Shown piece by piece: positions 2,599 to 62,740 of a stretch of 64,000 nt of DNA (the stretch's first letter is position 1; the number at the start of each line of letters is the position of its first letter). Source of the DNA: Malacoraja senta (lineage: Eukaryota); NCBI GenBank assembly GCA_038087875.1, contig CM075987.1:25422001-25486000 (forward strand), read 5' to 3'. The position numbers and the translations under genes are program-made. The notes below the pieces were generated by a model. The model did no database searches and was not told where the DNA came from. It was given only the letters and a program-made list of their open reading frames with translations.

Positions 2599-2725
2599 TC
2601 TGAAGAAGGGTCTCGACCCGAAACATCACCCATTCCTTCTCTCCAGAGATGCTGCCTGGCCCTCTGAGTTACTCCAGCTTTTTACGTCTATCTTCAGTTT
2701 AAACCAGTATCTGCAGTTCTTTCTT
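2599..2725 (+). mobile_element. 127-bp Penelope-derived hammerhead-bearing element with 13-bp TSD
   Basis: AAACAAACAAGAC flanks it at 2586-2598 and 2726-2738; starts TCTGAAGAAGGGTCTCGACCCGAAAC. Confidence 0.75.
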
Positions 2726-3855: not shown

Positions 3856-4171
3856 GCATCATAGAAATATTCCAATATACATGGGAGGCACTTGGGAACA
3901 AAAGTGGACAAGTTGGTTCATTGAGATTGTTTTCTCATTCAGCGAGAATTTGGCTTAACTGTGACTTAACAATAAGAAGGGTCTCGACCCAAAACGTCAC
4001 CTATTCCTTTTATCCAGAGATGCTGTCTGAACCGTTGAGTTACTCCAGCTTTTTGTGTCAACCTTCGGTTTAAACCAGCATCTGCAGTTCCTTCCTACTC
4101 CATCTTAGCTTGTTTAGTTTGGTTTAGTTTAGAGATACAGCATGGAAACAGGCCCTTCACCGACTTGGCCT

Positions 4172-4371
4172 NNNNNNNNNNNNNNNNNNNNNNNNNNNNN
4201 NNNNNNNNNNNNNNNNNNNNNNNNNNNNNNNNNNNNNNNNNNNNNNNNNNNNNNNNNNNNNNNNNNNNNNNNNNNNNNNNNNNNNNNNNNNNNNNNNNNN
4301 NNNNNNNNNNNNNNNNNNNNNNNNNNNNNNNNNNNNNNNNNNNNNNNNNNNNNNNNNNNNNNNNNNNNNNN
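4172..4371. other. Assembly gap (200 N)
   Basis: Run of n. Confidence 1.
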
Positions 4372-4683
4372 ACTCTAATGAGTACTTTGTCAGTGCCAGC
4401 AACATGATGACTTGTTTGTGTACTTTGTGTATTGCATGCAAAAAATACAAAGAATTTCAATGTACCTAGGCACATGTGACAATCAATGATACTTTTTGTC
4501 AAATGTATCGAGGTATAATTAAAAAAAAAAAATTATGGTTCAGTATCACTATACAAACGCACACTTAGATATATCTGAGATAAGTATCTCAGATACAGAA
4601 GTGTGTAGCAGTAGTACATTGAGACAGTGTAGAGTCACCAGTTTGGTGCCAGTTGTTGTAAGTACAGGGATCTTGATCTGACC

Positions 4684-4915
4684 ATGAATGAATGAATAAA
4701 TGAATACGTTTATTGGCCAAGTTTTCACATACAAGGAATTTGCCTTGGTGCTCTGCCCGCAAGTGACAACATGACATACAGTGACAGCTAGGAATGACAC
4801 ATAAAACATTAAACATTAATAATAAAACATTATCGATTAAACATGTGAATTAAATAAAATACCAGAGCAAAAGGAGGCTACAGATGTTTGGTTATTGAGT
4901 AGAGCTACTACTCAA
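4684..4915 (-). mobile_element. Rex1/Babar-like LINE 3' UTR
   Basis: (ATTC)n tail and GAGCACCAAGGCAAATTCCTTGTATGTG..TTGGCCAATAAA, which also follow the Rex1-like coding end at 48401-48830. Confidence 0.65.
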
Positions 4916-4971
4916 TAGGCACGGACAATTATCATTGAATCATTGAACTTTTGCAATTGGGGCAATGTCAC

Positions 4972-5540
4972 TTATATAAGGCACTTATATAAGACCACAT
5001 TTGGAGTATTGTGAGGAGTTTTGGGCCCCACATCTGAGAAGGGATGTGCTGACATTGGAGAGAATCCAGAGGAGGTTTACGAGAATCATCCCAAGAATGT
5101 ATGATAAGCATTTGATGGCACTGGGCCTGTACTCACTGAAGTTTAGAAGGATGAAGGGCAACCTCATTGAAACTTACTGAATAGTGAAAGGCCTGGATAG
5201 AGTGGACGTGGAGAGGATGTTTCCACTAGTGGGAGAGTCTCGGACCAGAGGGCACAGCCTCAGAATTAAAGGACATTCCTTTAGGAAGGAGATGAGGATG
5301 AATTTCTTTAGTCAGAGGGTGGTGAATCTGTGGAATTCATTGCTACAGAAGGCTGTGGAGGCCAAATCAATGGATATTTTTAAGGCTGAGGTAGATTCTT
5401 GATTAACGTGGGTGTCAGGGGTTATGGGGAGAAGGCAGGAGAATGGGGTTTGGGGGGAGTGATAGATCAGCCATGATTGAATGGCGGAGTAGACTTGACG
5501 GGCCAAATGGCCTAATTCTGCTCTTATGATCTCATGAACT
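4972..5540 (+). mobile_element. CR1 LINE 3' fragment
   Basis: Peptide KGLDRVDVERMFPLVGESRTRGHSLRIKG..FFSQRVVNLWNSL. Confidence 0.9.
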
Positions 5541-6037
5541 TATAATGATTGCTAACACTCAAAATGATTTACATCACTGCAACAAATAAATCTTTACTCA
5601 AACTAATGTCTAAACTCTTATTCTCTTGATCAAAACTATGATAACAACTGATCACTGGATCTAAAACAATATCGTTGCTTAGTTTTGAGCAGACGAATTG
5701 CCTTGAGGCATAATTACTGATCATTAAATATATTGATTTCAATTACACTGAATTTCTCAAAGGGTGTCTGGCTAAAGGTTTATTAGATTGGAACAATCTC
5801 AGCAATAACGTGAAAACCTTGAGACTTCATAAAATAATATCTTGATGAAGTTTGCAGGATTTATGAACTCAAGTGCCCTAATCATTTGGCTGTTCCTTAT
5901 TCTGTTTGATCTATTAATTGTATTTCAGAGCTTTCACTTCATCCGTACTTCTCTGTGTTTTAAATCGTTGTTGTGCTGTTACAAGTGAGAATTATTTTAT
6001 TGATCCGTTTCGGGACATAGGCCAATAAAACACTCTT

Positions 6038-6495
6038 CATATGTTCATAAGTTCTTGGAGCAGGATTAGATCAATCAGCCCATCAAGTCCAGTCCGCCAT
6101 TCAATCATGGCTGATCTATCTTTCCCTCTCAACCCCATTCTCCCCGTAACCCCTGACAACCGTACTGATCAAGAATCCGCCAATCTCCGCCATAAATCTG
6201 TGGAGTTCTTTGCCACAGAAGGCTGTGGAGGCCAAGTCAGTGGATAATTTTAAGGCAGAGATAGATAGACTCTTGATTAGTACGGGTGTCAGAGGTTATG
6301 GAGAGAAGGCAGGAAAATGGGATTAGGAGGGAGAGATAGATCAGCCATTATTGAATGGTGGAGTAGACTTGATCAACCGAATGGCCTAATTCTGCTCCTA
6401 TTCCTTATGACCTTAAAAATATCCATTGACTTGGCTGTCAGTGGCAATGAACTCCACAGATTCACCACCCTCTGACTAAAGAAATTCCTCCTTAT
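6038..6495. mobile_element. Nested CR1 3' ends in opposite orientations
   Basis: A plus-strand CR1 tail (6197-6412) splits a minus-strand CR1 tail. Confidence 0.7.
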
Positions 6496-7129
6496 CCTCT
6501 CGACACTGTTTATCTGTTATGTGCCCAATAAACAGTTGATCAAAGCTTTTTAGGAAGGTTGGCATTTTGTATCAAACCAGACAAAAGAAAGAAAAGTATT
6601 TTTTTCAGATAATCCATAAAATAAAGTCATGACAGAACTCCAGGAAAGTATTATTGCTTGTTTTGTGATAAATATTTTAAGTCTCCAATAAAAGACCTTT
6701 AATACCTTTGGAACATCTGAAGTGCCATTTGAGAGTACTTCAATGACCAATTTGATAACTTTGCTGACAATTGAGTGTGGATGCATTGGGCAACATTAGC
6801 AGAATTAGATGCGGTCAGCTTTATGAATGGGACATCTTTACACATCTTTAGTTTAGTATAGACCACAAAACGCTGGAGAAACTCAGCAGGTGAGGCAGCA
6901 TCTATGGAGAGAAGGAATTGGCCACGTTTCGGGTCAAGACCCTTCTTCTTTAGTTTAGTTTAGTTTGTTATTGTCATGTGTACCGAGGTGCAATGAAAAG
7001 CTTTTTTATGCGTGCCAACCATTCAGTGAAAAGACTACACATGGTTACAATCAAGCCGTCCACAGTTTATAGATACAGGACAAAAGGAATAATGTTTCGT
7101 GCTAGTTAGAGTCCAGTAAAGTCCCATTA

Positions 7130-7400
7130 GTTTTTAGTTCAGTTTAGAGATACAGCGCGGAAACAGGCCCTTCGGCCCACCGAGTCTGCAGCGACCAGCG
7201 ATCCCCGCACACTAACACTATCCTACACACACTACAATTACAATGATACCAAGCCAATTAACCTACAAACCTGTACGTCTTTGGAGGGTGGGAGGAAACC
7301 GGCGATCTCGGGGAAAATCCACGCAGGTCACGGGGAGAACGTACAAACTCCGTACAGACAGCACCCATAGTCGGGATCGAACACGGTTCTCTGGCGCTGT
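7130..7400 (-). mobile_element. HE1-type V-SINE inside a Rex1-like tail (6950-7445)
   Basis: Reverse complement of the HE1 consensus. Confidence 0.85.
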
Positions 7401-7687
7401 AGCTAAGGCAGCAACTCCTATTAAAGATAGTTTGAAGGTCTCCAATTTTCTGGTATATGACAGCATTGTAAATATACTTTGAAATAGTGATAATCACAAA
7501 AAGGATTCTCTGCCAACATTTGACCTGATGCCTTGAGACTTTAATAGCATCAGGAGTCAACATTGAGAATCCCAAGGTCTCCATCACTCAGCCTGTATAG
7601 CATTGTACTACCCCCTTTGTTAAGCCATTGGGATAGGACTTACAATGAAGTAGCCTGTCCCATTGACTGGAGGACATTATACAATGT

Positions 7688-7721
7688 GGTCTGAAGAAGG
7701 GTCTCGACCCGAAACGTCACC
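7688..7721 (+). ncRNA. Putative minimal hammerhead ribozyme core (most canonical copy of the Penelope-derived repeat)
   Basis: GGT-CTGAAGA-A-GGGTC-TC-GACCC-GAAAC-GTC-ACC: CUGANGA box, stem II, GAAA box, palindromic ACGT stem III and a GUC site. Confidence 0.6.
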
Positions 7722-8271
7722 CATGCTGCCAGTTACTCCAGCATTTTGTGCCTACATACAATGAGAATAATTCTATGCAAGGCCATTGCTTAATTGATCT
7801 GTGGAGAATCTCTCCTAACTTGGACACCGACAAACCTGTACGTCTTTGGAGTGTGGGAGGAAACCGGAGATCTCGGAGAAAATCCACGCAGGTCACGGGG
7901 AGAACTTAGCTGGAATAACACATAGCTGGAAGCAACACTGTAATTCGGTGCTCCAATTTGGAACTTAGATTTTTAATAGGTTCTTTCTGTTTTATCTCAG
8001 TAGTTATGGAGTGGCTTGCCTGACCACAGCAACATCAACCAGATTCTGAAGAAGGGCCTCGGTCCGAAATCGTCACCCATTCCTTTTCTCCAGAGATGCT
8101 GCCTGTCCCGCTGAGTCACTCCAGCTTTTTGTGTCTTATCTTCGGTTTAAACCAGAATCTGCAGTTCCTTCCCACACATCAACCCTATTAATAACTTTTG
8201 ACTCATTAGTGGCCTAACACAAAGGGTGGACAAGATAAAGATGTCAGATTTTCTTTAAAGTGTAATAAAAA

Positions 8272-8492
8272 AGGAACTGCAGATGCTGGTTTACACAAGA
8301 GAAAGACACAAAATGCTGGAGTGACTCTGCGGGTCAGGCAGCATCTCTGGAGAACATGGATAGGTGACGTTTCAGGTCGGGGCCCTTCATCTAATTTCAG
8401 TTGGAAGAAGGGTGCTGACCAGAAATGAAACCTATCCATTTTCTCCAGAGATGCTGCCTGACCTGGTGAGTTACTTCAGTATTTTGTGTCAT
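8272..8492. mobile_element. Inverted (head-to-head) pair of Penelope-derived hammerhead repeats
   Basis: Minus copy 8272-8395 is followed by plus copy 8403-8492. Confidence 0.7.
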
Positions 8493-8663
8493 TCTTTGGC
8501 AGATTTTTTTGTATGACTGTTAGTAGTGAACAAGCTTGCTTTGTGCAATAATTCAGTTGTTTTCAGGTCATCCTCATCAATGACATTTGGGTTATTTTGG
8601 GGTTTATTAACTGGGTTTAAATTTCTCAACCACTGAGGTGGGATTTGAACTCCTCTCATCTCT

Positions 8664-8945
8664 TTTTTTAAAATATTTTAATTTTATTAGAAGTAAGTAC
8701 AATTGTATACAATCATATTTTCATAATACCTTTTATGTACAGCTTCTTATTTAAAAAAAATTTTGTAATAAAGAAGAAAAATAAAAAAGTTAGATAATGA
8801 AAAATAGAAAAATGTGAGATATATAGTGTGTGAAAAAGAAAAATAGAGAGTGAAAAAAGAAAGTTGAGACATAGAAAATAGAAGAAAGAGAGTAAATGAA
8901 GAAAAGAGAAGAAAAGAAAATAGAAGTAAGGAGATCATTTATAAT
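8664..8945 (-). mobile_element. L1/Tx1-like 3' UTR with poly(A) (related copies 23480-23790 minus, 54095-54220 plus)
   Basis: Shared TACTTCTAATAAAA-poly(A) end and a pyrimidine-rich UTR. Confidence 0.5.
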
Positions 8946-9046
8946 CTTGACCATCCCTCACCCAGTCACGGATCATCTCTTGATGGTTAGTGCACTCGTC
9001 TGGATTGTATATCCAGTCATTTAAAACTGTGCCATCAACATTAGAG

Positions 9047-13302: not shown

Positions 13303-13540
13303 AGTCTGAAGAAGGTTCCCGACCCGAAACGTCACCCATTCCTTCCCTCCAGAGATGCTGCCTGTTCCGCTGAGTTACTCCAGCATTTTGTGTCTCTCTT
13401 CGGGGTAAACCAGCATCTGCAGTTCCTTCCTATACAGTCTGAAGAAGGGTTTCGGCCCGAAACGTTGCCTATTTCCTTCGCTCCATAGATGCTGCTGCAC
13501 CCGCTGAGTTTCTCCAGCATTTTTGTGTTCCTTCCTATAC
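13303..13540 (+). mobile_element. Tandem pair of hammerhead-bearing Penelope-derived repeats (two subfamilies)
   Basis: Cores at 13306 and 13439, 133 bp apart. Confidence 0.75.
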
Positions 13541-23817: not shown

Positions 23818-24172
23818 GGGCGGCACGGTGGTGTAGCGGTAGGAGCTACCGTTTACAGTGTCAGAGACCTGGGTTCGATCCCAACAAGGGGTGCTGCATG
23901 TACGGATGCTGTACTAGAGGTGCTGTATGTATGTTGAACGTAAAACTCCGTACATGCAGCACCCCTAGTTGGGATCGAACCCAGGTCTCTGACGCTTGCT
24001 TGGGTTTTATCTGAGATCTTCAGTTTCCTCCCGCACTCCAAAGATGTACTGGTTTGTAGGCTAACTGGCTTGGTGTAAATGTAAAATTGTCCCTAGTGTG
24101 TGTAGGGTAGTGTTAATGTGCAGGGGATCGCTGGTAGCCGAGGCATGTTTCCACATTTGAAACTCTAAACTA
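23818..24172 (+). mobile_element. HE1-type V-SINE with an internal inverted duplication
   Basis: Head, V-domain and tail; 47-bp arms at 23860-23906 and 23947-23993. Confidence 0.85.
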
Positions 24173-25654
24173 GACCGAAAAATATTATATTTCATGCTCA
24201 GAAGTGAGAGGATAGAAATAGGCCATTCGGCTCATCAGGTCTACTCTGCCATTCAATCATGGCTGATCTATCTCTCCCTCCTAACCCCATTCTCCTGCCT
24301 TCTCCCCATAACCACTGGCTCCCACACTAATCAAGAATGTATCTATCTATGCCTTAAAAATATCCACTCACTTGGCCTTCACAGCCATTAAAATACACAA
24401 AGCCAATTTACCTGCATACCTGGAGTGTGGGAGGAAACCGAAGATCTCGGAGAAAACCCACATGGTCACGGGGAGAACGTACAAACTCCGTACAGTCAGC
24501 ACCTGTAGTCGGGATCGAACCCGGGTCTCCAGCGCTGCATTTGCTGTAAGGCAGCAACTCTACCTATGTGCCACCGTGCCGCCCATATATATGATGATAT
24601 GCTATGATGAATATACATGAAATAGAAGTGTGAAAACGCACAACTCCAGTTTCAGGGACAGTTTAATCTCAGCTATTATCAGACAACTGAACCATCCTAA
24701 CACCATCACCTATCCCATCACCTTCTTGGAAATCCTCGGTCTATCTTTGATTGGACTTTACTGGACTATATCTTGAACTAAACATTATTCATGTTATTGC
24801 TTTAATCATGTATCTCTGTACACTGTGGATGGCTCAATTGAAATCACGCATTACCTTTCCGCTAACTGGTTAGCACGCAACAAAACGTTTTGACAACATG
24901 TGACAATAAACTAAACTAAACTACGCTACTGTGAATCACATTGAAATTATTCTACCTTTTGGCTAATGTTAAGAAAGGGCTCCAGGTCTGTTTATCCTCT
25001 GGCCATCCAAGACCAGTAATGAGATGAGCCACAGCAAAACCAAGGAGAACTAATGAGGTGAATGGATCCATCCTGATAATTTATCAGTGGGTACGACCTT
25101 ATGGTTTAATGATGCACGAGTTAATTTACCTGACAACGCTGCATATATATTCTGCTGAGAGCAGATTGAGGTCAATTGGAGAGTAGATATTCAGTACCAG
25201 AGACTTCTAAATGTTTGCTGGTCAAATTTAACTATCCTGGCAGAAATCCTGAAGTATATTGATACATCAGAGCAGCCTATTGATGGATGTGGCTTCGAAA
25301 ATACCGTGAAGAAGGGCTTCCATCCTTCTGTGTAGGATAGAACTGCTGACAATAGACAATTGTCAATAGACAATAGGTGCAGTTGATGCTGGTTTAAACC
25401 GAAGATAGACACAAAAAGTTGGAGGAACTCAGCGGGACAGGCAGCATCTCTGGAGAGAAGGAATGGGTGACGTTTCGGGTTGAGACCCTTCTTCAGAATT
25501 GGTGACCTTTCGGGTCAGACTAGTCTGACGAAGGGTCTCGACCAGAAACGTCATCCATTCCTTCTCTCCAGAGATGCTGCCTGTCCCGCTGAGTTACTCC
25601 AGCGTTTTGTGTCTATCTTCCATCGTTCCGCTGAGGTTAGGCAGAGGTATCGTT

Positions 25655-35073: not shown

Positions 35074-35786
35074 CTTGCTGCAGCTTAGCAGACCTGAAAC
35101 CATGTGTTTAAGAAGGAACTGCAGATGATGGAAAATCGAAGCAACAGAAAAATGCTGGAGAAACTCAGCGGGTGAGGCAGCATCTATGCAGCGAAGGAAA
35201 TAGGCAACGTTTCTGGCCGAAACCCTTCTTCAGACCTGAAACCATTATCGTCAATGCCTTAAAATTACTTATTTCCATCCTACTATTCTTTTCTATCAAA
35301 TACTTCTCAAAGGAATGCGAATGTGGGTGGGTGTGAAAGCTCCTTAACTAACCCCTGTGCAAGTGACAAAACTTGCAAGCATGATCTGGAAGTTATGATA
35401 GAAGTCTGCAACCCATCCTTGACGGCTCATTAGGGAGAAAGTCCTTAGCAGGCAAGATCCTGCTGGTAGTTGGTCTGGTTTACATCCATCAAATCAGCTC
35501 CAACCCACGCCACCTCATACATGGAGGAGAATTAAAGAAGTGAAATTGATACATCAGTATTTTTTAAACATTCTGCAAGGGAGGACATCCTCTTGTGGAA
35601 TTGTAGACTGGTAATATTTGGAAATATGCTTTAGTTTAGTTTAGGGATAAAGTGTGAGGCAGGCCCTTCGGCCCACAGAGTCCACATCGACCATCGATCA
35701 CCTGTACATTAGTTCTATGTTGTCCCAATCTTCACATCTTACACGCTCGGTGACAATGTGCAGTAGCCAATTAACATACCAACCTG

Positions 35787-36148
35787 AAGATAGACACAAA
35801 ATGCTGGAGTAACTCAGCGGGACAGGCAGCATCTCTGGAAAGAAGGAATGGGTGACGTTTCAGGTTGAGACCCTTCTTCAGTCTGATGTCAGGGGAGTGG
35901 GCGGGACAGAGATAGAATGTAGGCGGTGACAGTAAGGCTGGTGGGAGAACTGGGAAGTGGGAGGGGGTGGAGAGAGAGGGAAAGCAAGGGCTACTTTGAA
36001 GTTAGAGAAGTCAATGTTCATACCGCTGGGGTGTAAGCTGCCCAAGCGAAATATGAGGTGCTGTTCCTCCACTTTTTGCTGGGTCTCACTCTGACAGTGG
36101 AGGAGGCCCAGGACAGAAAGGTCAGAATGGGAACGGGAGGGGGAGATA
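35787..36148 (-). mobile_element. Penelope-like element 3' end (GIY-YIG endonuclease C-terminus and hammerhead-bearing pLTR)
   Basis: LSVLGLLHCQSE..EEQHLIFRLGSLHPSGMNIDFSNFK runs directly into the CTGAAGA..GAAACGTC repeat. Confidence 0.8.
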
Positions 36149-44278: not shown

Positions 44279-44927
44279 TGGGTCAGGCAGCACCTCTGGA
44301 GAAAAGGAATGGGTGACGTTTCGGATCGAGACCCTTCTTCAGACTGAGAGTCAGGGGAAAGGCGAATGGGAGATATCTAGACAGTACTTAGGAGAAATTG
44401 AATGGAAGATATGCAAAAAGCAATGATAATCAAAAAATGTGGGGGTGTGCAATAGACTATTGTTGGCTGTGGGATAGGTAACAACAAGTTATACAGACAC
44501 AGGAACTTAATAGGACGACAGTAAAACTAATACGATGACCAGGGTGGGGGAGGGACGGAGAGAGAGGGGATGCAAGGGTTTTTAACGCTACTTGAATCAT
44601 TATTCATACCGTGTAGCAAGGAGCTGCAGACGCTGGTTTAAACCAAAGATAGACGTAAAATGCTGGAGTAACTCAGCGGGACAGGCAGCATCTCTGGAGA
44701 GAAGGAATGGGTGACATTTCAGGTTGAGACCCTTTTTCGGATTGAAGAAGGGTCTCGACCCGAAACGTCACCCATTCCTCCTCTCCAGAGATGCTGCCTG
44801 GCCCGCTGAGTTACTCAACCATTTTGTATCTATCTTCAATGTACATACCGCTGGGTTGTAAGCTGCCCAAGCGAAATATGAGATGCTGTTCCTCTAATTT
44901 ACGTTTGGCCTCACTCTGACAGTGGAG
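44279..44927 (-). mobile_element. Penelope 3' region (continues 37740-37791) with a nested inverted hammerhead-repeat pair at 44612-44837
   Basis: LHCQSEAKRKLEEQHLIFRLGSLQPSGM in ORF 44811-45098. Confidence 0.75.
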
Positions 44928-48334: not shown

Positions 48335-49215
48335 TCTCCTGACCTGGGCCTCCTCCACTGTCAGAGTGAGGCCCAGTGCGAATTGGAGGAACAGCACCTC
48401 CGATCAGCAGAGAAGGTTATTGGCTGCAACCTTCCCTCCATTGATGAACTGTACACTGCAAGGGCCAGGAAGCGAGCGGGCAAGATCGTCTCTGACCCCT
48501 CTCACCCTGGCCACAAACTCTTTGAATCACTTCCCTCTGGAAGGCGACTCCGGACTGTCAAAGCTGCCACAGCCAGACATAAAGACAGTTTTTATGCACG
48601 AGTAGTTGCTCTACTCAACAGCCAAAAATCCGTAGCCTCCCTTTGATCTGGTATTTTGTTGGTTCACCTGCTTGATCAATGGTGTTTTATCATTAATGTT
48701 TTATTATTATTAATGTTCAGTATTTTCTGAATCATTCGTAACTGTCACTGTATGTCATGTTGTTACTTATGGGCGGAGCACCAAGGCAAATTCCTTGTAT
48801 GTGAATACTTGGCCAATAAACTTAATTACTTACTCATATTACGCTTGGGCAGCTTACACCCCAGCGGTATGTACATTGACATCGCTAACTTCAAGTAACC
48901 CTTTCTTTCCCTCTCTCTCCATCCCTTCCCCTTCCCAGTTCTACCACCTGTCTTTACTGTCTCCGACTACATTTGTTGATACCTTCTCCCAGCTAACAAG
49001 TGATCCATTCTACATTTTCCTTGATTTACATTCCCTTTGTCCTGTTTTCACATCTTACACTTCCTTATCTATGTTTCTCCCTCTCCCCTGACATCAGTCT
49101 GAGGAAGGGTCTCGACCCAAAACGTCATCCATTCCTTCTTTCCAGATATGCTGCCTGTCCCGCTGAGTTACTCCAGCATTTTGTGTCTATCTTCGGTTTA
49201 AACCAGCATTTGTGG
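48335..49215 (+). mobile_element. Penelope 3' end interrupted by a Rex1-like fragment (48401-48830)
   Basis: LGLLHCQSE..EEQHL|RSAEKVIGCNLP..SGRRLR; Penelope resumes CTCATATTACGCTTGGGCAGC; hammerhead core at 49099. Confidence 0.8.
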
Positions 49216-58275: not shown

Positions 58276-58585
58276 AGCATTGATCAAAAGATAGGATAAG
58301 AAAGTGTATAAGATCGAGTACATGGACATGGTCTCTTGCCCAGAGTAGGGGAGTCGAGGACCAAAGGTCCTGAACCTCCTCCATTGTCAGAGTGAGGCCC
58401 AGCGCAAATTGGAGGAACAGCATCTCATATTTCCCTTCGGCAGCTTGCACCTCAGCGGTATGAACACTGACTTCTCTAACTTCAAGTAACCCTTGCTTTC
58501 CCTCTCTCTCCATCCCCTCCCTCTTACCAGTTCTCCCACCAGTCTTACTGTCTCCGACTACATTCTATCTCTGTGCCGCCCACTC

Positions 58586-61500
58586 ATAGAAACATAGAAA
58601 CATAGAAAATAGGTGCAGGAGTAGGCCATTCGGCCCTTTGTGCCTGCACCGCCATTCAATATGATCATGGCTGATCATCCAACTCAGTATCCCGTACCTG
58701 CCTTCTCTCCATAACCCCTGATCCCTTTAGCCACAAGGGCCACATCTAACTCCCTATTAAATATAGCCAATGAACTGGCCTCAACTACCTTCTGTGGCAG
58801 AGAGTTCCAGAGATTCACCATTCTCTGTGTGAATTTTTTTTTTCTCATCTCGGTCCTAAAAGATTTCCCCTCTATCCTTAAGCTGTGACCCCTTGTCCTG
58901 GACTTCCCCAACATGTGGAACAATCTTCCTGCATCTAACCTGTCCAACCCCTTGAGAATTTTGTAAGTTTCTATAAGATCCCCCCTCAATCTCCTAAATT
59001 CTAGCGAGTACAAGCCGAGTCTATCCAGTCTTTCTTCATATGAAAGTCCTGACATCCCAGGAATCAGTCTGGTGAACCTTCTCTGAACTCCCTCTATGGC
59101 AATAATGTCTTTCCTCAGATTTGGAGACCAAAACTGTACGCAATACTCCAGGTGTGGTATCACCAAGACCCTGTACAACTGCAGTAGAACCTCCCTGCTC
59201 CTATACACAAATCCCTTTGCTATGAATGCTAACATACCATTCGCTTTCTTCACTGCCTGCTGCACCTGCATGCCTACTTTCAATGACTGGTGTACCATGA
59301 CACCCAGGTCTCGTTGCATCTCCCCTTTTCCTAATCGGCCACCATTTAGATAATAGTCTGCTTTCCTGTTTTTGCCACCAAAGTGGATAACCTCACATTT
59401 ATCCACATTATACTGCATCTGCCATGCATTTGCCCACTCACCAAGCCTATCCAAGTCACCTTGCAGCCTCCTAGCATCCTCCTCACAGCTAACACTGCCC
59501 CCCAGCATAGTGTCATCGGCAAACTTGGAGATGTTGCATTCAATTCCCTCGTTCAAATCATTAATATATATTGTAAATAGCTTGGGTCCCAGCACTGAGC
59601 CTTGCGGTACCCCACTCGTCACTGCCTGCCATTCTGAAAAGGACCCGTTTACTCCTACTCTTTGCTTCCTGTTTGCCAGCCAGTTCTCTATCCACATCAA
59701 TACTGAACCCCCAATACCGTGTGCTTTAAGTTTGTATACTAATCTCTTATGTGGGACCTTGTCGAAAGCCTTCTGAAAGTCCAGATATAACACATCCACT
59801 GGTTCTCCCCTATCCACTCTACTAGTTACATCCTCGAAAAATTCTATAAGATTCGTCAGACATGATTTACCTTTCGTAAATCCATGCTGACTTTGTCCAA
59901 TGATTTCACCACTTTCCAAATTTGCTGCTATCCCATCTTTAATAACTGACTAGCAGTTTACCCACTACCGATGTAAGACTAACTGGTCTGTAATTCCCCG
60001 TTTTCTCTCCCCCTCCCTTTTTAAAAAGTGGTGTTACATTAGCTACCCTCCAATCCTCAGGAACTACTCCAGAATCTAAAGAGTTTTGAAAAAATATCAC
60101 TAATGCATCCACTATTTCTGGAGCTACTTCCTTAATTACTCTGGGATGCAGCCTATCTGGCCCTGGGGATTTATCGGCCTTTAATCCATTCAATTTACCT
60201 AACACCACTTACCGGCTCACCTGGATTTCACTCAGTTCCTCCATCTCCTTTGACCTGCGGTCCCCTGCTATTTCCGGCAGATTATTTATGTCTTCCTTAT
60301 TGAAGACGGAACCAAAGTACTTATTCAATTGGTCCGCCATATCCTTGTTCCCCATGATCAATTCACCTGTTTCTGACTGCAAGGGACTTACATTTGTTTT
60401 AACTAAACTCTTTCTCTTCACATATCTATAAAAACTTTTGCAGTCAGTTTTTATGTTCCCTGCCAGTTTCCTTTCATAATCTATTTTCCCTTTCCTAATT
60501 AAGCCCTTTGTCCTCCTCTGCTGGTCTCTGAATTTCTCCCAGTCCTCTGGTATGCTGCTTTTTCTGGCTAATTTGTACGCTTCATCTTTTGCTTTGATGC
60601 TATCCCTGATTTCCCTTGTTATCCACGGATGCACTACCTTCCCTGATTTATTCTTTTACCAAACTGGGATGAACAATTTTTGTAGTTCATCCATGCAGTC
60701 TTTAAATGCCTTCCATTGCATATCCACCGTCAACCCTTTAAGAATTAATCGCCAGTCAATCTTGGCCAATTCACGTCTCATACCCTCAAAGTTACCTTTC
60801 TTTAAGTTCAGCACCATTGTTTCTGAATTACCCATGTCATTCTCCATCCTAATGGAGAGCTCAACCATATTATGGTCACTCTTGCCCAAGGAGCCACGTA
60901 CAACAAGACTGTTAACTAACCCTTCCTCATTACTCAATACCCAGTCTAGAATAGCCTGCTCTCTCGTTGGTTCCTCTACATGTTGGTTTAGAAAACTATC
61001 CCGCATACATTCCAAGAAATCCTCTTCCTCAGCACCCCTGCCAATTTGATTCACCCAATCTATATGTAGATTGAAGTCACCCATTATAACTGTTTTACCT
61101 TTGTTGCACGCATTTCTAATTTCCTGTTTGATGCCATCCCCAACTTCACTACTACTGTTAGGTGGCCTGTACACAACACCCACCAGCGTTTTCTCCCCCT
61201 TAGTGTTTCGCAGCTCTACCCATATCGATTCCACATCCTCCAAGCTAATGTCCTTCCTTTCCATTGCGTTAATCTCCTCTCTAACCAGCAACGCTACCCC
61301 ACCTCCTTTTCCTTTCTGTCTATCCCTCCTGAATATTGAATATCCCTGGATGTTCAGCTCCCAGCCTTGGTCTCCCTGGAGCCATGTCTCCGTGATCCCA
61401 ACTATATCATAATCATTAATAGCTATCTGCACATTCAACTCATCCACCTTATTACGAATGCTCCTTGCATTGAGACACAAAGCCTTCAGGCTTGTTTTTA

Positions 61501-61700
61501 CAACGCTCTTACCCCTTATACAATTATGTTGAAAAGTGGCCCTTTTTGATTTTTGCCATGGATTTGTCTGCCTGCCACTTTTATATTTCACCTTGCTACC
61601 TATTGCTTTTACCCCCATTTTACACCCCTCTGTCTCTCTGCTCACCCATTTAAGAACCCCACCACCTCTTATTCTCTGTTTATTATTGTTTTCTTCTTTC
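58586..61700 (-). mobile_element. CR1 (HER1-type) LINE, 5'-truncated near the ORF2 start, inserted in a Penelope 3' fragment (58368-58585 and 61700-61820)
   Basis: (ATAGAAAC)n tail; the Penelope host sequence resumes on both sides. Confidence 0.92.
58684..61645 (-). pseudogene. CR1 ORF2 (APE endonuclease + reverse transcriptase), disabled
   Basis: NARSI/ITETWL/MGDFN/SDHN endonuclease motifs; QHGF, DFQKAFD, GVPQGSVLGP, FADD RT motifs; in-frame stops at 60656 and 60209 and a frameshift near 59945. Confidence 0.93.
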
Positions 61701-62740
61701 CCCCCTACACTCCTCCGACATCAGTCTGAAGAAGGGTCTCGACCAGAAACGTCGCCCATTCCTTCTCTCCATAGATGCTGCCTCACCCGCTGAGTCCCTC
61801 CAGCATTTTTGTCTGCCATCCTCTTCACTAATGGAGGCTCACGTTGATATCATTTCGCGATACGATTCTGCTTGCACCCATCTTCAAAGTGTCATCGATG
61901 TGAAGCAGCAAGAAATCATAGATTAAAGTGTTATGTTCCTCAATATCCCTCTCTGAACAGTTAAAGCCATGGGGTGCCAAACGAAGGAGGTAAATTTCTC
62001 TGATGTGGACATATAAACCTTTTCATAAATTGTCTCCCGATTTTAAATGCAGTAAACAGACAAAACACTGTCTCATTATCTGATGCATCAAGACCTTCCC
62101 GAGGATAATGCTTCATTCTAAACCCATTAATAGTGAGTTACGGTTATTTTAAGAAGGACATTTGCAAATTCATGAACAGTTTGTGAAAGGAAGGTTATTT
62201 GAAAGAGGCCTTTTGCGACGTACAATCAAAACAACGTTTTTATTTGGCTTTTTTAACTTTACGATTAGAGCGAGCTGTCTGTTATTTGGTTGCTGAGAGA
62301 CATTCGTCATCCTTTTATTAGTTTTTATAGCAGATTTGTATTTGTGCAATGGAACATTGTCATCAGAATGTTAAAAAAAAAAAGCCTTTGAAGTGCAAGG
62401 TATGAATAGACCCTGGAGAGGTAATTGATGAAGCAAAAGATTTGTAACGATCCGCTGGCACTGTACTGAAGGATAATATATTCCCCATTTTAACTCTATA
62501 TTTTTGTTTCAGATGAATGATAGTACTGAATGATTCTGTGGTGGCTTCAGATTTGCAGAGATTAATGGATCTGGAAGCAAAGCTAGACACGGGAAAGAAA
62601 AATTATTGGGCTGGCATTTACTGGCGGCATTGAGTTGTTACTCGACTCACCTGTTGTGAACAGGCTTGGCTTTTTTGTGGATCAACGAACAATATGTTGC
62701 TCAAAGTCACCACGATGCAAAATGGAGTGTACTCTGGGTA

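What the first reader, a model, noticed from the sequence alone, without database searches (positions are those of the whole stretch)
35787..36148. The window's most common short repeat is a Penelope pLTR carrying a minimal hammerhead ribozyme
Seen: more than 30 copies or fragments of a repeat containing CTGANGA-A-GGGTC-TC-GACCC-GAAAC-GTC-AC. Here, and at 44279-44927, 48335-49215 and 58368-61820, it follows a Penelope GIY-YIG C-terminus (EEQHLIFRLGSLxPSGMN). The free N7 position takes all four bases (A 7691, C 25525, T 18088, G 49099). Stem II varies but stays pairable (GGGTT/GGCCC at 13439). Stem III is only the palindrome ACGT. Known: Penelope-like elements carry minimal hammerheads thought to act as dimers, and an extra A after CUGANGA occurs in natural hammerheads. 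Only 2-3 bp of helix I are evident, so activity is not established.
Basis: partly seen in the sequence, partly recalled or inferred. Interest (0 to 1): 0.7.

Follow-up and report, generated by a model that had tools for sequence, protein, structure and literature searches.

The report
Penelope retroelement tail with minimal hammerhead
The window's commonest repeat is the tail end of a hugely amplified Penelope-like jumping gene that carries the small hammerhead self-cutting RNA motif already described for such elements, so the finding is correct but of a known kind.

Summary
The window has 33 copies of the 30-nt motif (0 in shuffles) and the genome has about 19,800 exact 28-mers. The focal copy lies on the minus strand at 35852-35881. 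It follows the C-terminal end of a GIY-YIG endonuclease reading frame.

Fuller copies elsewhere in the genome encode RT plus C-terminal GIY-YIG in one ORF. They sit in partial tandems with head-to-head inverted copies and a 35-nt extension. That is the anatomy of a Penelope-like element (PLE).

The motif matches the published minimal PLE hammerhead: CUGANGA, one extra A, a G-C-closed helix II, GAAA, no helix III beyond an ACGU palindrome, and GUC or GUU. In PLE relatives at 33-65% protein identity I found the same architecture at the same place, with a covarying helix I.

This family keeps only 2 bp of helix I. Its copies show no covariation and Rfam models do not score it. Cleavage is unproven.

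New here: 26 of 44 window copies begin within 5 nt of the hammerhead's first base, often with target-site duplications. I saw no insertion that begins exactly at the predicted cleavage site.

Verdict: a new member of a known kind, of modest interest.

The parts
35852..35881 (-). Focal minimal hammerhead motif: CUGAAGA, extra A, helix II GGGU/ACCU with a central CUCA loop, GAAA, CGU, C, then AC. The predicted cut is after GUC.
   Evidence: 2 mismatches to the 7691-7720 copy
35787..35851 (-). About 65-nt tail that ends the insertion. It is the most repeated sequence of the window and holds an AUGCUG/CAGCAU stem.
35882..35991 (-). C/T-rich 3'UTR between the ORF end and the hammerhead. It ends in ...CAUCAGA just before CUGA.
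35992..36148 (-). 5'-truncated remnant of the GIY-YIG endonuclease C-terminus (...LLHCQSETQQKVEEQHLIFRLGSLHPSGMNIDFSNFK). The stop seen in other copies is lost here.
   Evidence: compare L039 and L007
44313..44342 (-). Hammerhead copy with 3'UTR upstream. An endonuclease C-terminus remnant lies at 44874-44894 (-), separated from it by a nested head-to-head pair.
44711..44771 (.). Head-to-head inverted pair of hammerhead-plus-tail modules (44711-44740 minus, 44742-44771 plus), joined at their hammerhead 5' borders.
48335..48899 (+). Endonuclease C-terminus split by an unrelated insertion at 48403-48836. The stop codon is at 48897-48899.
49099..49128 (+). Hammerhead copy (N7 = G, G12 to A) about 200 nt after that stop. 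Tail and extension run to about 49215.
58368..58564 (+). Endonuclease C-terminus remnant plus the start of the 3'UTR of a copy whose hammerhead lies at 61726.
58684..61720 (-). LINE (AP endonuclease plus RT ORFs) inserted into that PLE 3'UTR. It is not part of the PLE.
61726..61755 (+). Hammerhead copy that completes the split element. Its tail runs to about 61814.
13306..13534 (+). Two adjacent modules with hammerheads at 13306 and 13439, 133 nt apart. They belong to different subfamilies, so this is an insertion next to an older copy rather than a duplication.
25467..25554 (.). Head-to-head pair (25467-25496 minus, 25525-25554 plus) with a 28-nt spacer that is itself a hammerhead fragment lacking helix II.
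2599..2725 (+). Short module flanked by a 13-nt target-site duplication. Its 5' end is 1 nt before the hammerhead and its 3' end is about 96 nt after it.
35104..35235 (-). Short module of the young subfamily (helix II GGGUUUCGGCC). A 10-12-nt target-site duplication ends 0-2 nt before the hammerhead.

Best explanation
**What it is.** The repeat is the 3'-terminal module of a very abundant endonuclease-positive Penelope-like retroelement with a Neptune-type CX4CxxC linker. The module has four parts in order: the end of a C/T-rich 3'UTR, a 30-nt minimal type I hammerhead, a tail of about 64 nt where reverse transcription evidently starts, and often a further 35-nt extension.

**How copies arise.** Copies are made by target-primed reverse transcription from the tail. 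This explains several features:
- discrete 3' ends
- variable 5' truncation
- partial tandems (pseudo-LTRs)
- head-to-head inverted partners
- 9-13-nt target-site duplications

**How the hammerhead would work (inferred, not shown).** It has no helix III of its own. Two copies would pair through the ACGU palindrome to build a shared helix III, and cutting would follow GUC (GUU in the young subfamily). With only 2 bp of helix I, this probably needs the element's protein or another helper, as reported for a lizard PLE.

**What the copies say about templates.** The templates of the insertions seen here were mostly not cut at that site.
For: **Motif**
- Motif significance and copy number.
- The consensus has the extra A after A9, G10.1-C11.1 and the palindromic 15.2/16.2 pair. 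These are the features Cervera and De la Pena list for PLE min-HHRs.

**Element identity**
- Endonuclease C-terminus upstream on the same strand at four window loci.
- RT plus GIY-YIG in one ORF in L007, L039 and L071.
- 862 homologues at E<=1e-10, precomputed with PF00078 and PF01541.
- CX4CxxC linker.

**Anatomy**
- In tandem copy L071 the order is stop, 120 nt, hammerhead, 64-nt tail, 35-nt extension, 5'UTR, next ORF.
- L073 has a unit of 4,069 nt.
- 16 of 20 young copies that hold the ORF start run at least 110 nt upstream of the hammerhead.
- Endonuclease-region candidates number 51,896 against 5,954 for the N-terminal region. This is the expected 5'-truncation gradient.
- Target-site duplications of at least 9 nt in 10 of 21 short copies, against 0 of 21 controls.

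**Relatives**
- The same motif lies 77-281 nt after the endonuclease end in 15 of the 30 loci that reach the ORF end.
- Helix I averages 3.0 consecutive pairs in register. Slid registers give 0.27-0.67 and shuffled partners 0.81; 0 of 2,000 shuffles reached the observed value.

**Literature for the dimer and helper step**
- PMC4209133.
- PMC11167929, passages.
- PMC6765202, passages.
Against: - No hammerhead family of Rfam matches, at gathering scores or at E<=10.
- The 92 aligned copies show no covariation. 71.8% of cells pair, against 72.1% in shuffles, and there are fewer double changes than in shuffles.
- Minimum-energy folds of four natural copies do not form the hammerhead. They pair GAAGAAGG with downstream CCUUCU, and z-scores run from -2.3 to +0.65.
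- Helix I is only 2 bp in both subfamilies.
- Between subfamilies the hammerhead (27/30) is hardly better kept than the tail (55/64) or the extension (29/36). Conservation here does not single out the ribozyme.
- Pfam scores for RVT_1 are below the curated cut-off in all three ORFs. GIY-YIG passes only in L007.
- None of 151 copies has an alignment starting 2-5 nt past the predicted cut, and none of the nine starting at +21..+29 looked like an insertion beginning at the cut.
- No RNA data could be obtained.
Confidence: 0.85

Rival explanations
1. The short modules are not random truncations. They would be a separately mobilised unit of about 95-135 nt (solo pseudo-LTR, SINE-like or retrozyme-like) whose RNA begins at the hammerhead's 5' border. 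Either transcription starts there (the border reads TCAGTCT, an initiator-like word) or a template boundary lies there. The PLE reverse transcriptase, starting in the tail, would then run off after about 100 nt. This is compatible with the main explanation and adds to it.
For: - 26 of 44 window copies start within 5 nt of the first hammerhead base. Across all sequence held, 55 of 151 start within -7..+5.
- Of 28 copies chosen only by an exact 28-mer, I classed 6 as ending at the border cleanly and 7 as inverted junctions there, reading by eye.
- Target-site duplications of 9-13 nt end 0-5 nt before the hammerhead in 10 of 21 copies, against 0 of 21 controls.
- Contigs of other runs show loose ends at the same border (table 7).
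- Both old and young subfamilies make such copies.
- Precedent: D. virilis Penelope has an internal TATA-less promoter with a start site inside the pseudo-LTR (PMC2377424, passages).
Against: - 0 of 20 young copies that reach the ORF start begin at the border; 16 run on upstream.
- An initiator-like 7-mer is expected by chance about once per 128 positions.
- No RNA 5' ends could be examined: no RNA run is on record and only contigs were held.
- The one adjacent pair in the window joins two subfamilies, so it is not a retrozyme-type array.
Confidence: 0.3
2. The motif is not a working ribozyme in this family. It would be a conserved piece of the module that the reverse transcriptase or the promoter needs, and it keeps the hammerhead letters by descent.
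For: - No within-family covariation.
- Helix I is only 2 bp.
- No thermodynamic preference for the hammerhead fold.
- The hammerhead is no better conserved than the tail.
- I saw no insertion that starts at the cut site.
- Published PLE min-HHRs cleave poorly in vitro.
- Hammerhead mutants did not affect insertion in vitro.
- PLE clades without hammerheads multiply well.
Against: - The 11 core letters are intact in the young, still uniform subfamily: 15 of 18 copies have the identical 30-mer.
- All three differences between subfamilies fall on positions the hammerhead tolerates: the loop, a wobble pair and H17.
- Relatives keep the architecture while helices I and II change sequence.
Confidence: 0.15
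3. The short repeat is a tRNA-derived SINE read on the opposite strand. There the sequence shows box A-like (TAACTCAGCGG) and box B-like (GGGTCGAGACC) words 52 nt apart, and the hammerhead letters would be a coincidence.
For: Read by eye: 8 of 9 specified box B positions and 7 of 9 box A positions match, at a plausible spacing. The box consensus sequences are recalled, not taken from a call.
Against: - ARAGORN finds no tRNA in the window and Rfam gives no tRNA match at E<=10.
- The same sequence continues upstream into a PLE 3'UTR and ORF on the hammerhead strand.
- The discrete end is the tail end and the variable end is the hammerhead side, which fits priming in the hammerhead sense.
- Distant PLEs with different helix II sequences carry the motif at the same place.
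Confidence: 0.02

Closest known systems
Minimal hammerheads (min-HHR) in the pseudo-LTRs of metazoan Penelope-like elements (Cervera and De la Pena 2014, PMC4209133; dimer cleavage also in Lunse, Weinberg and Breaker, seen only as a title in the reference list of PMC6765202)
   Same: - Type I motif with no helix III or loop 3.
- Palindromic 15.2/16.2.
- One unpaired nucleotide between A9 and 10.1.
- G10.1-C11.1.
- Short helix I.
- Located in the pseudo-LTR.
- Thousands of mostly solitary copies, some close together on opposite strands.
   Different: - Helix I is 2 bp, against 4-5 bp in most published metazoan families. It equals the 2 bp reported for D. virilis.
- Helix II is only 4 bp with a tetraloop, against 6-8 bp in the schistosome and fly examples.
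- The copy number is far larger (about 19,800 exact 28-mers) than the 4,000-9,000 quoted for coelacanth and Xenopus.
- The young subfamily uses GUU.
PAc, the Poseidon-type PLE of Anolis carolinensis studied in vitro (PMC11167929)
   Same: - Tandem organisation.
- Reverse transcription starts at internal sites downstream of the hammerhead, giving a 'tail'.
- Insertions derive from uncut RNA.
   Different: - In PAc the ORF starts inside the hammerhead (at stem II). Here the start codon lies about 135 nt after it.
- The linker motif here is the Neptune/Nematis type.
- No biochemical data exist for this element.
Non-LTR retrozymes of animals (Cervera and De la Pena 2020, PMC7229834, listing only; Li et al. 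2026 preprint 10.64898/2026.07.22.740005, abstract and Results part 1)
   Same: Short non-coding units with a type I hammerhead, related to PLE pseudo-LTRs and dispersed largely as monomers.
   Different: - Retrozymes are defined by tandem arrays that give circular RNA.
- Here the window has one adjacent pair, made of two subfamilies, and no RNA evidence.
- The unit ends are fixed insertion ends with target-site duplications.
Penelope of Drosophila virilis (Schostak et al. 2008, PMC2377424)
   Same: - Pseudo-LTR with regulatory function.
- A 2-bp helix I hammerhead whose 5' edge coincides with another landmark: the intron's 3' end in the fly, a pile-up of copy 5' ends here.
   Different: - In the fly the start site lies about 120 nt upstream of the hammerhead, with an intron between them.
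- Here I found no usable splice donor. A roughly 95-nt 3'UTR length difference between copies does not end at the border.

Membership tests
Hammerhead ribozyme, minimal PLE type | Core C3 U4 G5 A6 N7 G8 A9 and G12 A13 A14 | tested here: met
   14 exact instances in the window. 15 of 18 young copies have the identical 30-mer.
Hammerhead ribozyme, minimal PLE type | Cleavage triplet N-U-H next to helix I | tested here: met
   GUC in the main subfamily, GUU in the young one.
Hammerhead ribozyme, minimal PLE type | Helix II closed by G10.1-C11.1, preceded by one unpaired nucleotide | tested here: met
   4 bp plus tetraloop; 88.6% of cells paired. Helix II sequences differ between relatives while pairing is kept.
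Hammerhead ribozyme, minimal PLE type | Helix I of several base pairs | tested here: inconclusive
   Only 2 bp in register in this family. Relatives have 3-5 bp with covariation, and 0 of 2,000 shuffles reach the observed pairing.
Hammerhead ribozyme, minimal PLE type | Helix III replaced by a palindrome that can pair between two copies | tested here: met
   ACGU with no loop; 91.8% of cells keep it. It is invariant in relatives, though the search pattern there required it.
Hammerhead ribozyme, minimal PLE type | Match to the curated Rfam hammerhead models | tested here: not met
   No hammerhead hit at gathering scores or at E<=10.
Hammerhead ribozyme, minimal PLE type | Site-specific self-cleavage | not testable with these tools
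   No RNA run is on record and only contigs could be laid.
Penelope-like element, endonuclease-positive | One ORF with RT followed by a C-terminal GIY-YIG endonuclease | tested here: met
   - RVT_1 scores 22.5-26.5 bits, below the 29.6 cut-off.
- GIY-YIG scores 23.3 (above 22.6) in L007 and 19.6 in L039 and L071.
- 862 homologues, precomputed with both domains.
Penelope-like element, endonuclease-positive | Partial tandems forming pseudo-LTRs, inverted 5'-truncated partners, and a 30-40-bp tail extension | tested here: met
   L071 and L073; 16 of 20 copies; inverted pairs; a 35-nt extension. Features as listed in PMC8557442.
Penelope-like element, Neptune/Nematis clades | [quoted passage not shown] | tested here: met
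   CNRKKCY(S/T)C in L039 and L040. The three cysteines are invariant in alignment A2. No phylogeny was run.
Non-LTR retrozyme | Tandem arrays of short hammerhead units that yield circular RNA | tested here: inconclusive
   One adjacent pair in the window, made of two subfamilies. Contigs of one other run join extension end to hammerhead border (table 5c). No RNA data.

The most novel reading that the evidence does not exclude
The hammerhead's 5' edge may be a functional boundary of the element's RNA. Either an internal promoter fires there (TCAGTCT at the border, with the conserved ACGU about 27-30 nt downstream), or a telomerase-style template boundary stops the reverse transcriptase there. 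Each pseudo-LTR would then be a self-contained unit of about 100 nt that the PLE enzyme copies. That would explain why solitary minimal hammerheads flood metazoan genomes. It would also mean the 'ribozyme' sequence is kept partly for a role other than cutting.
Probability: 0.25. Interest if true: 0.55.

Novelty: new member of a known kind. Interest (0 to 1): 0.3.

Why it matters
The finding adds a very large vertebrate family to the catalogue of Penelope-like elements with minimal hammerheads. The family has about 19,800 exact motif copies in a 1.9-Gb genome and a young subfamily that is 99% uniform. The closest named protein is from a shark.

Two points could feed the open question of what PLE hammerheads are for:
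- Insertions almost never begin at the predicted cleavage site, which agrees with in vitro work saying that uncut RNA is the template.
- About half of the copies begin exactly at the hammerhead's 5' edge, which points to an RNA end or boundary there.

Neither point changes the picture of the kind.

Tried and rejected

- My first pattern had the wrong spacing and found nothing.
- A best-match fuzzy regex undercounted, finding 8 copies. Both were replaced.

**Searches that found nothing useful**
- Rfam at gathering and at E<=10: no hammerhead. The hits were chance or simple-repeat microRNA models.
- PDB sequence search with the 615-aa ORF: nothing.
- Earlier scan notes for this genome or this sequence: none.
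- A paper search for Penelope + hammerhead + shark returned 4 papers, none on the topic by title.
- Lunse et al. is not held.

**RNA evidence**
- No RNA holder is listed for the stretch.
- Laying contigs of four runs (three only guessed to be RNA) gives no starts, ends or expression.

**Splice-acceptor idea for the pyrimidine tract plus CAG before the motif**
- I saw no conserved donor.
- The roughly 95-nt 3'UTR length difference between the 35852 and 49099 copies does not end at the border.
- No spliced joint appeared in the contigs.

**Start site at the border for full-length RNA**
- 0 of 20 young long copies begin there.

**Other ideas dropped**
- The hammerhead cannot cut at its own 5' edge. 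The GUC and AUC triplets there cannot be placed in a hammerhead fold (reasoning only).
- Opposite-strand tRNA-SINE: no support.
- Covariation inside the family: none.

**Limits on what I could fetch**

Full report
**Observation.**
- CTGANGA-N(10-16)-GAAAC occurs 14 times in the window, against 0.32 expected.
- 33 ungapped 30-mers lie within 8 mismatches of the copy at 7691-7720. Ten composition-preserving shuffles gave none.
- BLAST with two long reference copies marks 49 segments covering 4,771 bases, 7.5% of the window.
- The window's most frequent non-simple 14-mers (22 occurrences) come from the tail of this repeat. The next family reaches 14.
- The window is part of a 1.94-Gb assembly. 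That assembly holds 9,851 + 9,933 exact matches to the 28-mer with a free N7, and none to the reversed control.

At the focal locus the motif is on the minus strand at 35852-35881. The four places where it follows an endonuclease C-terminus are confirmed. Two of them are interrupted by later insertions: about 435 bp at 48403-48836 and a LINE at 58684-61720.

**What the element is.**
The window holds only the last 30-50 codons of the ORF. Longer copies elsewhere in the genome show the rest.
- L007 and L039 carry RT motifs followed by a GIY-YIG endonuclease in one frame.
- Pfam gives RVT_1 at 22.5-26.5 bits, below the 29.6 cut-off. GIY-YIG scores 23.3 bits in L007 (above 22.6) and 19.6 in L039 and L071.
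- The RT-endonuclease half of an intact 1,020-aa ORF (L071) finds 862 proteins at E<=1e-10. These are precomputed with PF00078 and often PF01541. The best named one is an uncharacterised shark protein at 70% identity.
- The linker carries CNRKKCY(S/T)C. This is the CX2-5CxxC motif that PMC8557442 (passages) gives as the mark of the Neptune and Nematis clades. I ran no phylogeny.

Anatomy in full copies:
- The order is stop codon, about 120 nt of C/T-rich 3'UTR, the 30-nt motif, a 64-nt tail, a 35-nt extension, then the 5'UTR and the next ORF (L071, a tandem).
- In L073 two motifs lie 4,069 nt apart around one ORF, preceded by a 5'-truncated piece of the previous unit.
- Of 20 young copies found through their 5'UTR, 16 continue at least 110 nt upstream of the motif into the previous unit's 3'UTR.
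- Endonuclease-region candidates outnumber N-terminal ones 51,896 to 5,954. Both are lower bounds from a first look.

Partial tandems, inverted 5'-truncated partners and a 30-40-bp tail extension are the features PMC8557442 lists for PLEs.

**Is it a hammerhead?**
The motif reads C3-A9, one extra A, helix II of 4 bp closed by G10.1-C11.1 with a YUCG tetraloop, G12-A14, then ACGU and H17. There is no helix III or loop.

This is the min-HHR that Cervera and De la Pena defined and found in the pseudo-LTRs of metazoan PLEs, fishes included. Their list covers:
- the unpaired nucleotide between 9 and 10.1
- the G10.1-C11.1 pair
- the palindromic 15.2/16.2
- a short helix I (2 bp in D. virilis)
- thousands of mostly solitary copies, some close together on opposite strands

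I read their main text, parts 1-2 of 4.

Evidence inside this genome is weak.
- The 92 aligned copies pair no better than shuffles (71.8% against 72.1%) and show fewer double changes, as expected for decaying dead copies.
- The helix II difference between subfamilies is two one-sided transitions to wobble pairs.
- Minimum-energy folds do not form the hammerhead.
- Rfam models do not score it.
- Between the two main subfamilies the motif (27/30) is kept about as well as the tail (55/64) and the extension (29/36). The upstream 100 nt are not kept (61/100).

The useful test came from distant relatives. A profile of the RT-endonuclease region pulled 80 loci from metagenome contigs, at 33-65% identity.
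- Thirty of these reach the ORF end. In 15 of the 30, the same architecture, sometimes decayed, lies 77-281 nt downstream on the same strand.
- A strict scan gave 19 hits on the ORF strand and 7 on the other.
- Across 15 distinct contexts, helix I averages 3.0 consecutive pairs in register. Slid registers give 0.27-0.67 and shuffled partners 0.81; 0 of 2,000 shuffles reach the observed value.
- Many different helix I and helix II sequences occur, and N7 is A, C or U.

The class is therefore a structured hammerhead. The window's family is a member with an unusually short helix I (2 bp).

**How it most likely works.**
- Shown: the module is the constant 3' end of insertions. 3' ends fall at two discrete places, about +58..+68 and about +96..+100 after the motif. 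5' ends vary. Target-site duplications of 9-13 nt flank short copies in 10 of 21 cases, against 0 of 21 controls.
- Inferred from PMC11167929 (passages): the reverse transcriptase starts internally in the tail.
- Inferred from the motif and from PMC4209133 and PMC6765202: two copies pair through ACGU to make a common helix III and cut after GUC/GUU. This probably needs help from the element's protein, as in the lizard element.
- Not shown: any cleavage.

The copies bear on the use of cut RNA.
- Of 151 tail-bearing copies, none has an alignment starting at +30..+33, that is 2-5 nt past the cut. Nine start at +21..+29, and on inspection these are mostly inverted junctions or internal deletions.
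- One young long copy (L083) begins about 3 nt after the cut.
- The templates of these insertions were therefore mostly uncut, which agrees with the in vitro report.

**An extra observation: copies start at the motif's 5' edge.**
- In the window, 26 of 44 tail-bearing segments start within 5 nt of the first hammerhead base. Two start at -6..-15, 7 run further upstream, 4 start inside the motif and 5 start in the tail.
- Across all sequence held, 55 of 151 start at -7..+5.
- Of 28 copies picked only by an exact 28-mer, I classed 14 as running on upstream, 6 as ending at the border cleanly, 7 as head-to-head junctions at the border and 1 as complex. I read these by eye.
- The target-site duplications end 0-5 nt before the motif, so these are true insertion ends.
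- Contigs of other runs show loose ends at the same place (table 7).
- The border reads TCAGTCT and is preceded by a pyrimidine tract and CAG.

I found no support for an intron, and 0 of 20 long young copies start at the border. An RNA 5' end or a template boundary at that point is my preferred reading for the short copies, but it is untested.

**Comparison and verdict.**
The finding is a correct recognition of a published kind: PLE pseudo-LTR with a minimal, dimer-type hammerhead. What is particular here is the scale, the 2-bp helix I, GUU in the young subfamily, and the pile-up of copy starts at the motif's edge.

I did not open the supplements of PMC4209133 or of the 2026 preprint (abstract and Results part 1 read). 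They may already cover cartilaginous fishes.

Noticed in passing
window 58684-61720 (-): A LINE with AP-endonuclease and RT ORFs (354 and 421 aa stretches, broken by frame changes) is inserted into the 3'UTR of a PLE copy. It separates that copy's endonuclease remnant (58368-58564) from its hammerhead (61726).
   Followed up: partly
window 6921, 17403, 34232 (5' junctions): Three short modules abut (AAACT)n-type microsatellite at their 5' side, and two of their apparent target-site duplications are that repeat. This fits the microsatellite insertion bias reported for PLEs with a CxxC linker.
   Followed up: partly
L004:2792-2966: A head-to-head pair is joined exactly at the ACGU palindrome of helix III, giving a perfect palindrome. 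Several other inverted junctions lie at +21..+26, just before the predicted cut.
   Followed up: no
L083 (G000:C20:9199727-9200077, minus): One young copy that reaches the ORF start begins about 3 nt after the predicted hammerhead cleavage site. It is the only candidate in my samples for a template that had been cut.
   Followed up: no
genome, 5'UTR of the young subfamily: All 40 scored matches to a 199-nt 5'UTR stretch are 99-100% identical (1,210 first-look candidates). Some lie about 4.0 kb apart on one contig, and intact 968-1,026-aa frames exist. The family looks recently active.
   Followed up: partly
window 35630-35786 and elsewhere: The second most frequent repeat of the window (words such as GCCAATTAACCTAC and GGCCCTTCGGCCC, 13-14 copies) starts with (TTTAG)n. 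PLE modules are inserted into or next to it.
   Followed up: no
window 23861-23992: A 132-nt near-perfect hairpin scored 49.9 bits against a plant microRNA model (gathering score 100). Its arms contain GGGTTCGATCCC, so it looks like an inverted pair of tRNA-related SINE pieces rather than a microRNA.
   Followed up: no
window 35781-35851 (-) and all tails: The tail holds a conserved stem (AGAUGCUG pairing with CAGCAUUU) around a loop of about 22 nt, just before the discrete 3' ends. It is a candidate for the site the reverse transcriptase recognises. No covariation was seen between subfamilies.
   Followed up: partly
L039:5625-5760: A copy with a 615-aa open frame lacks the hammerhead through a deletion of about 60 nt that joins the 3'UTR directly to the tail.
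   Followed up: no
window 4172-4371: A run of 200 N (assembly gap) lies next to a module at 3971.
   Followed up: no
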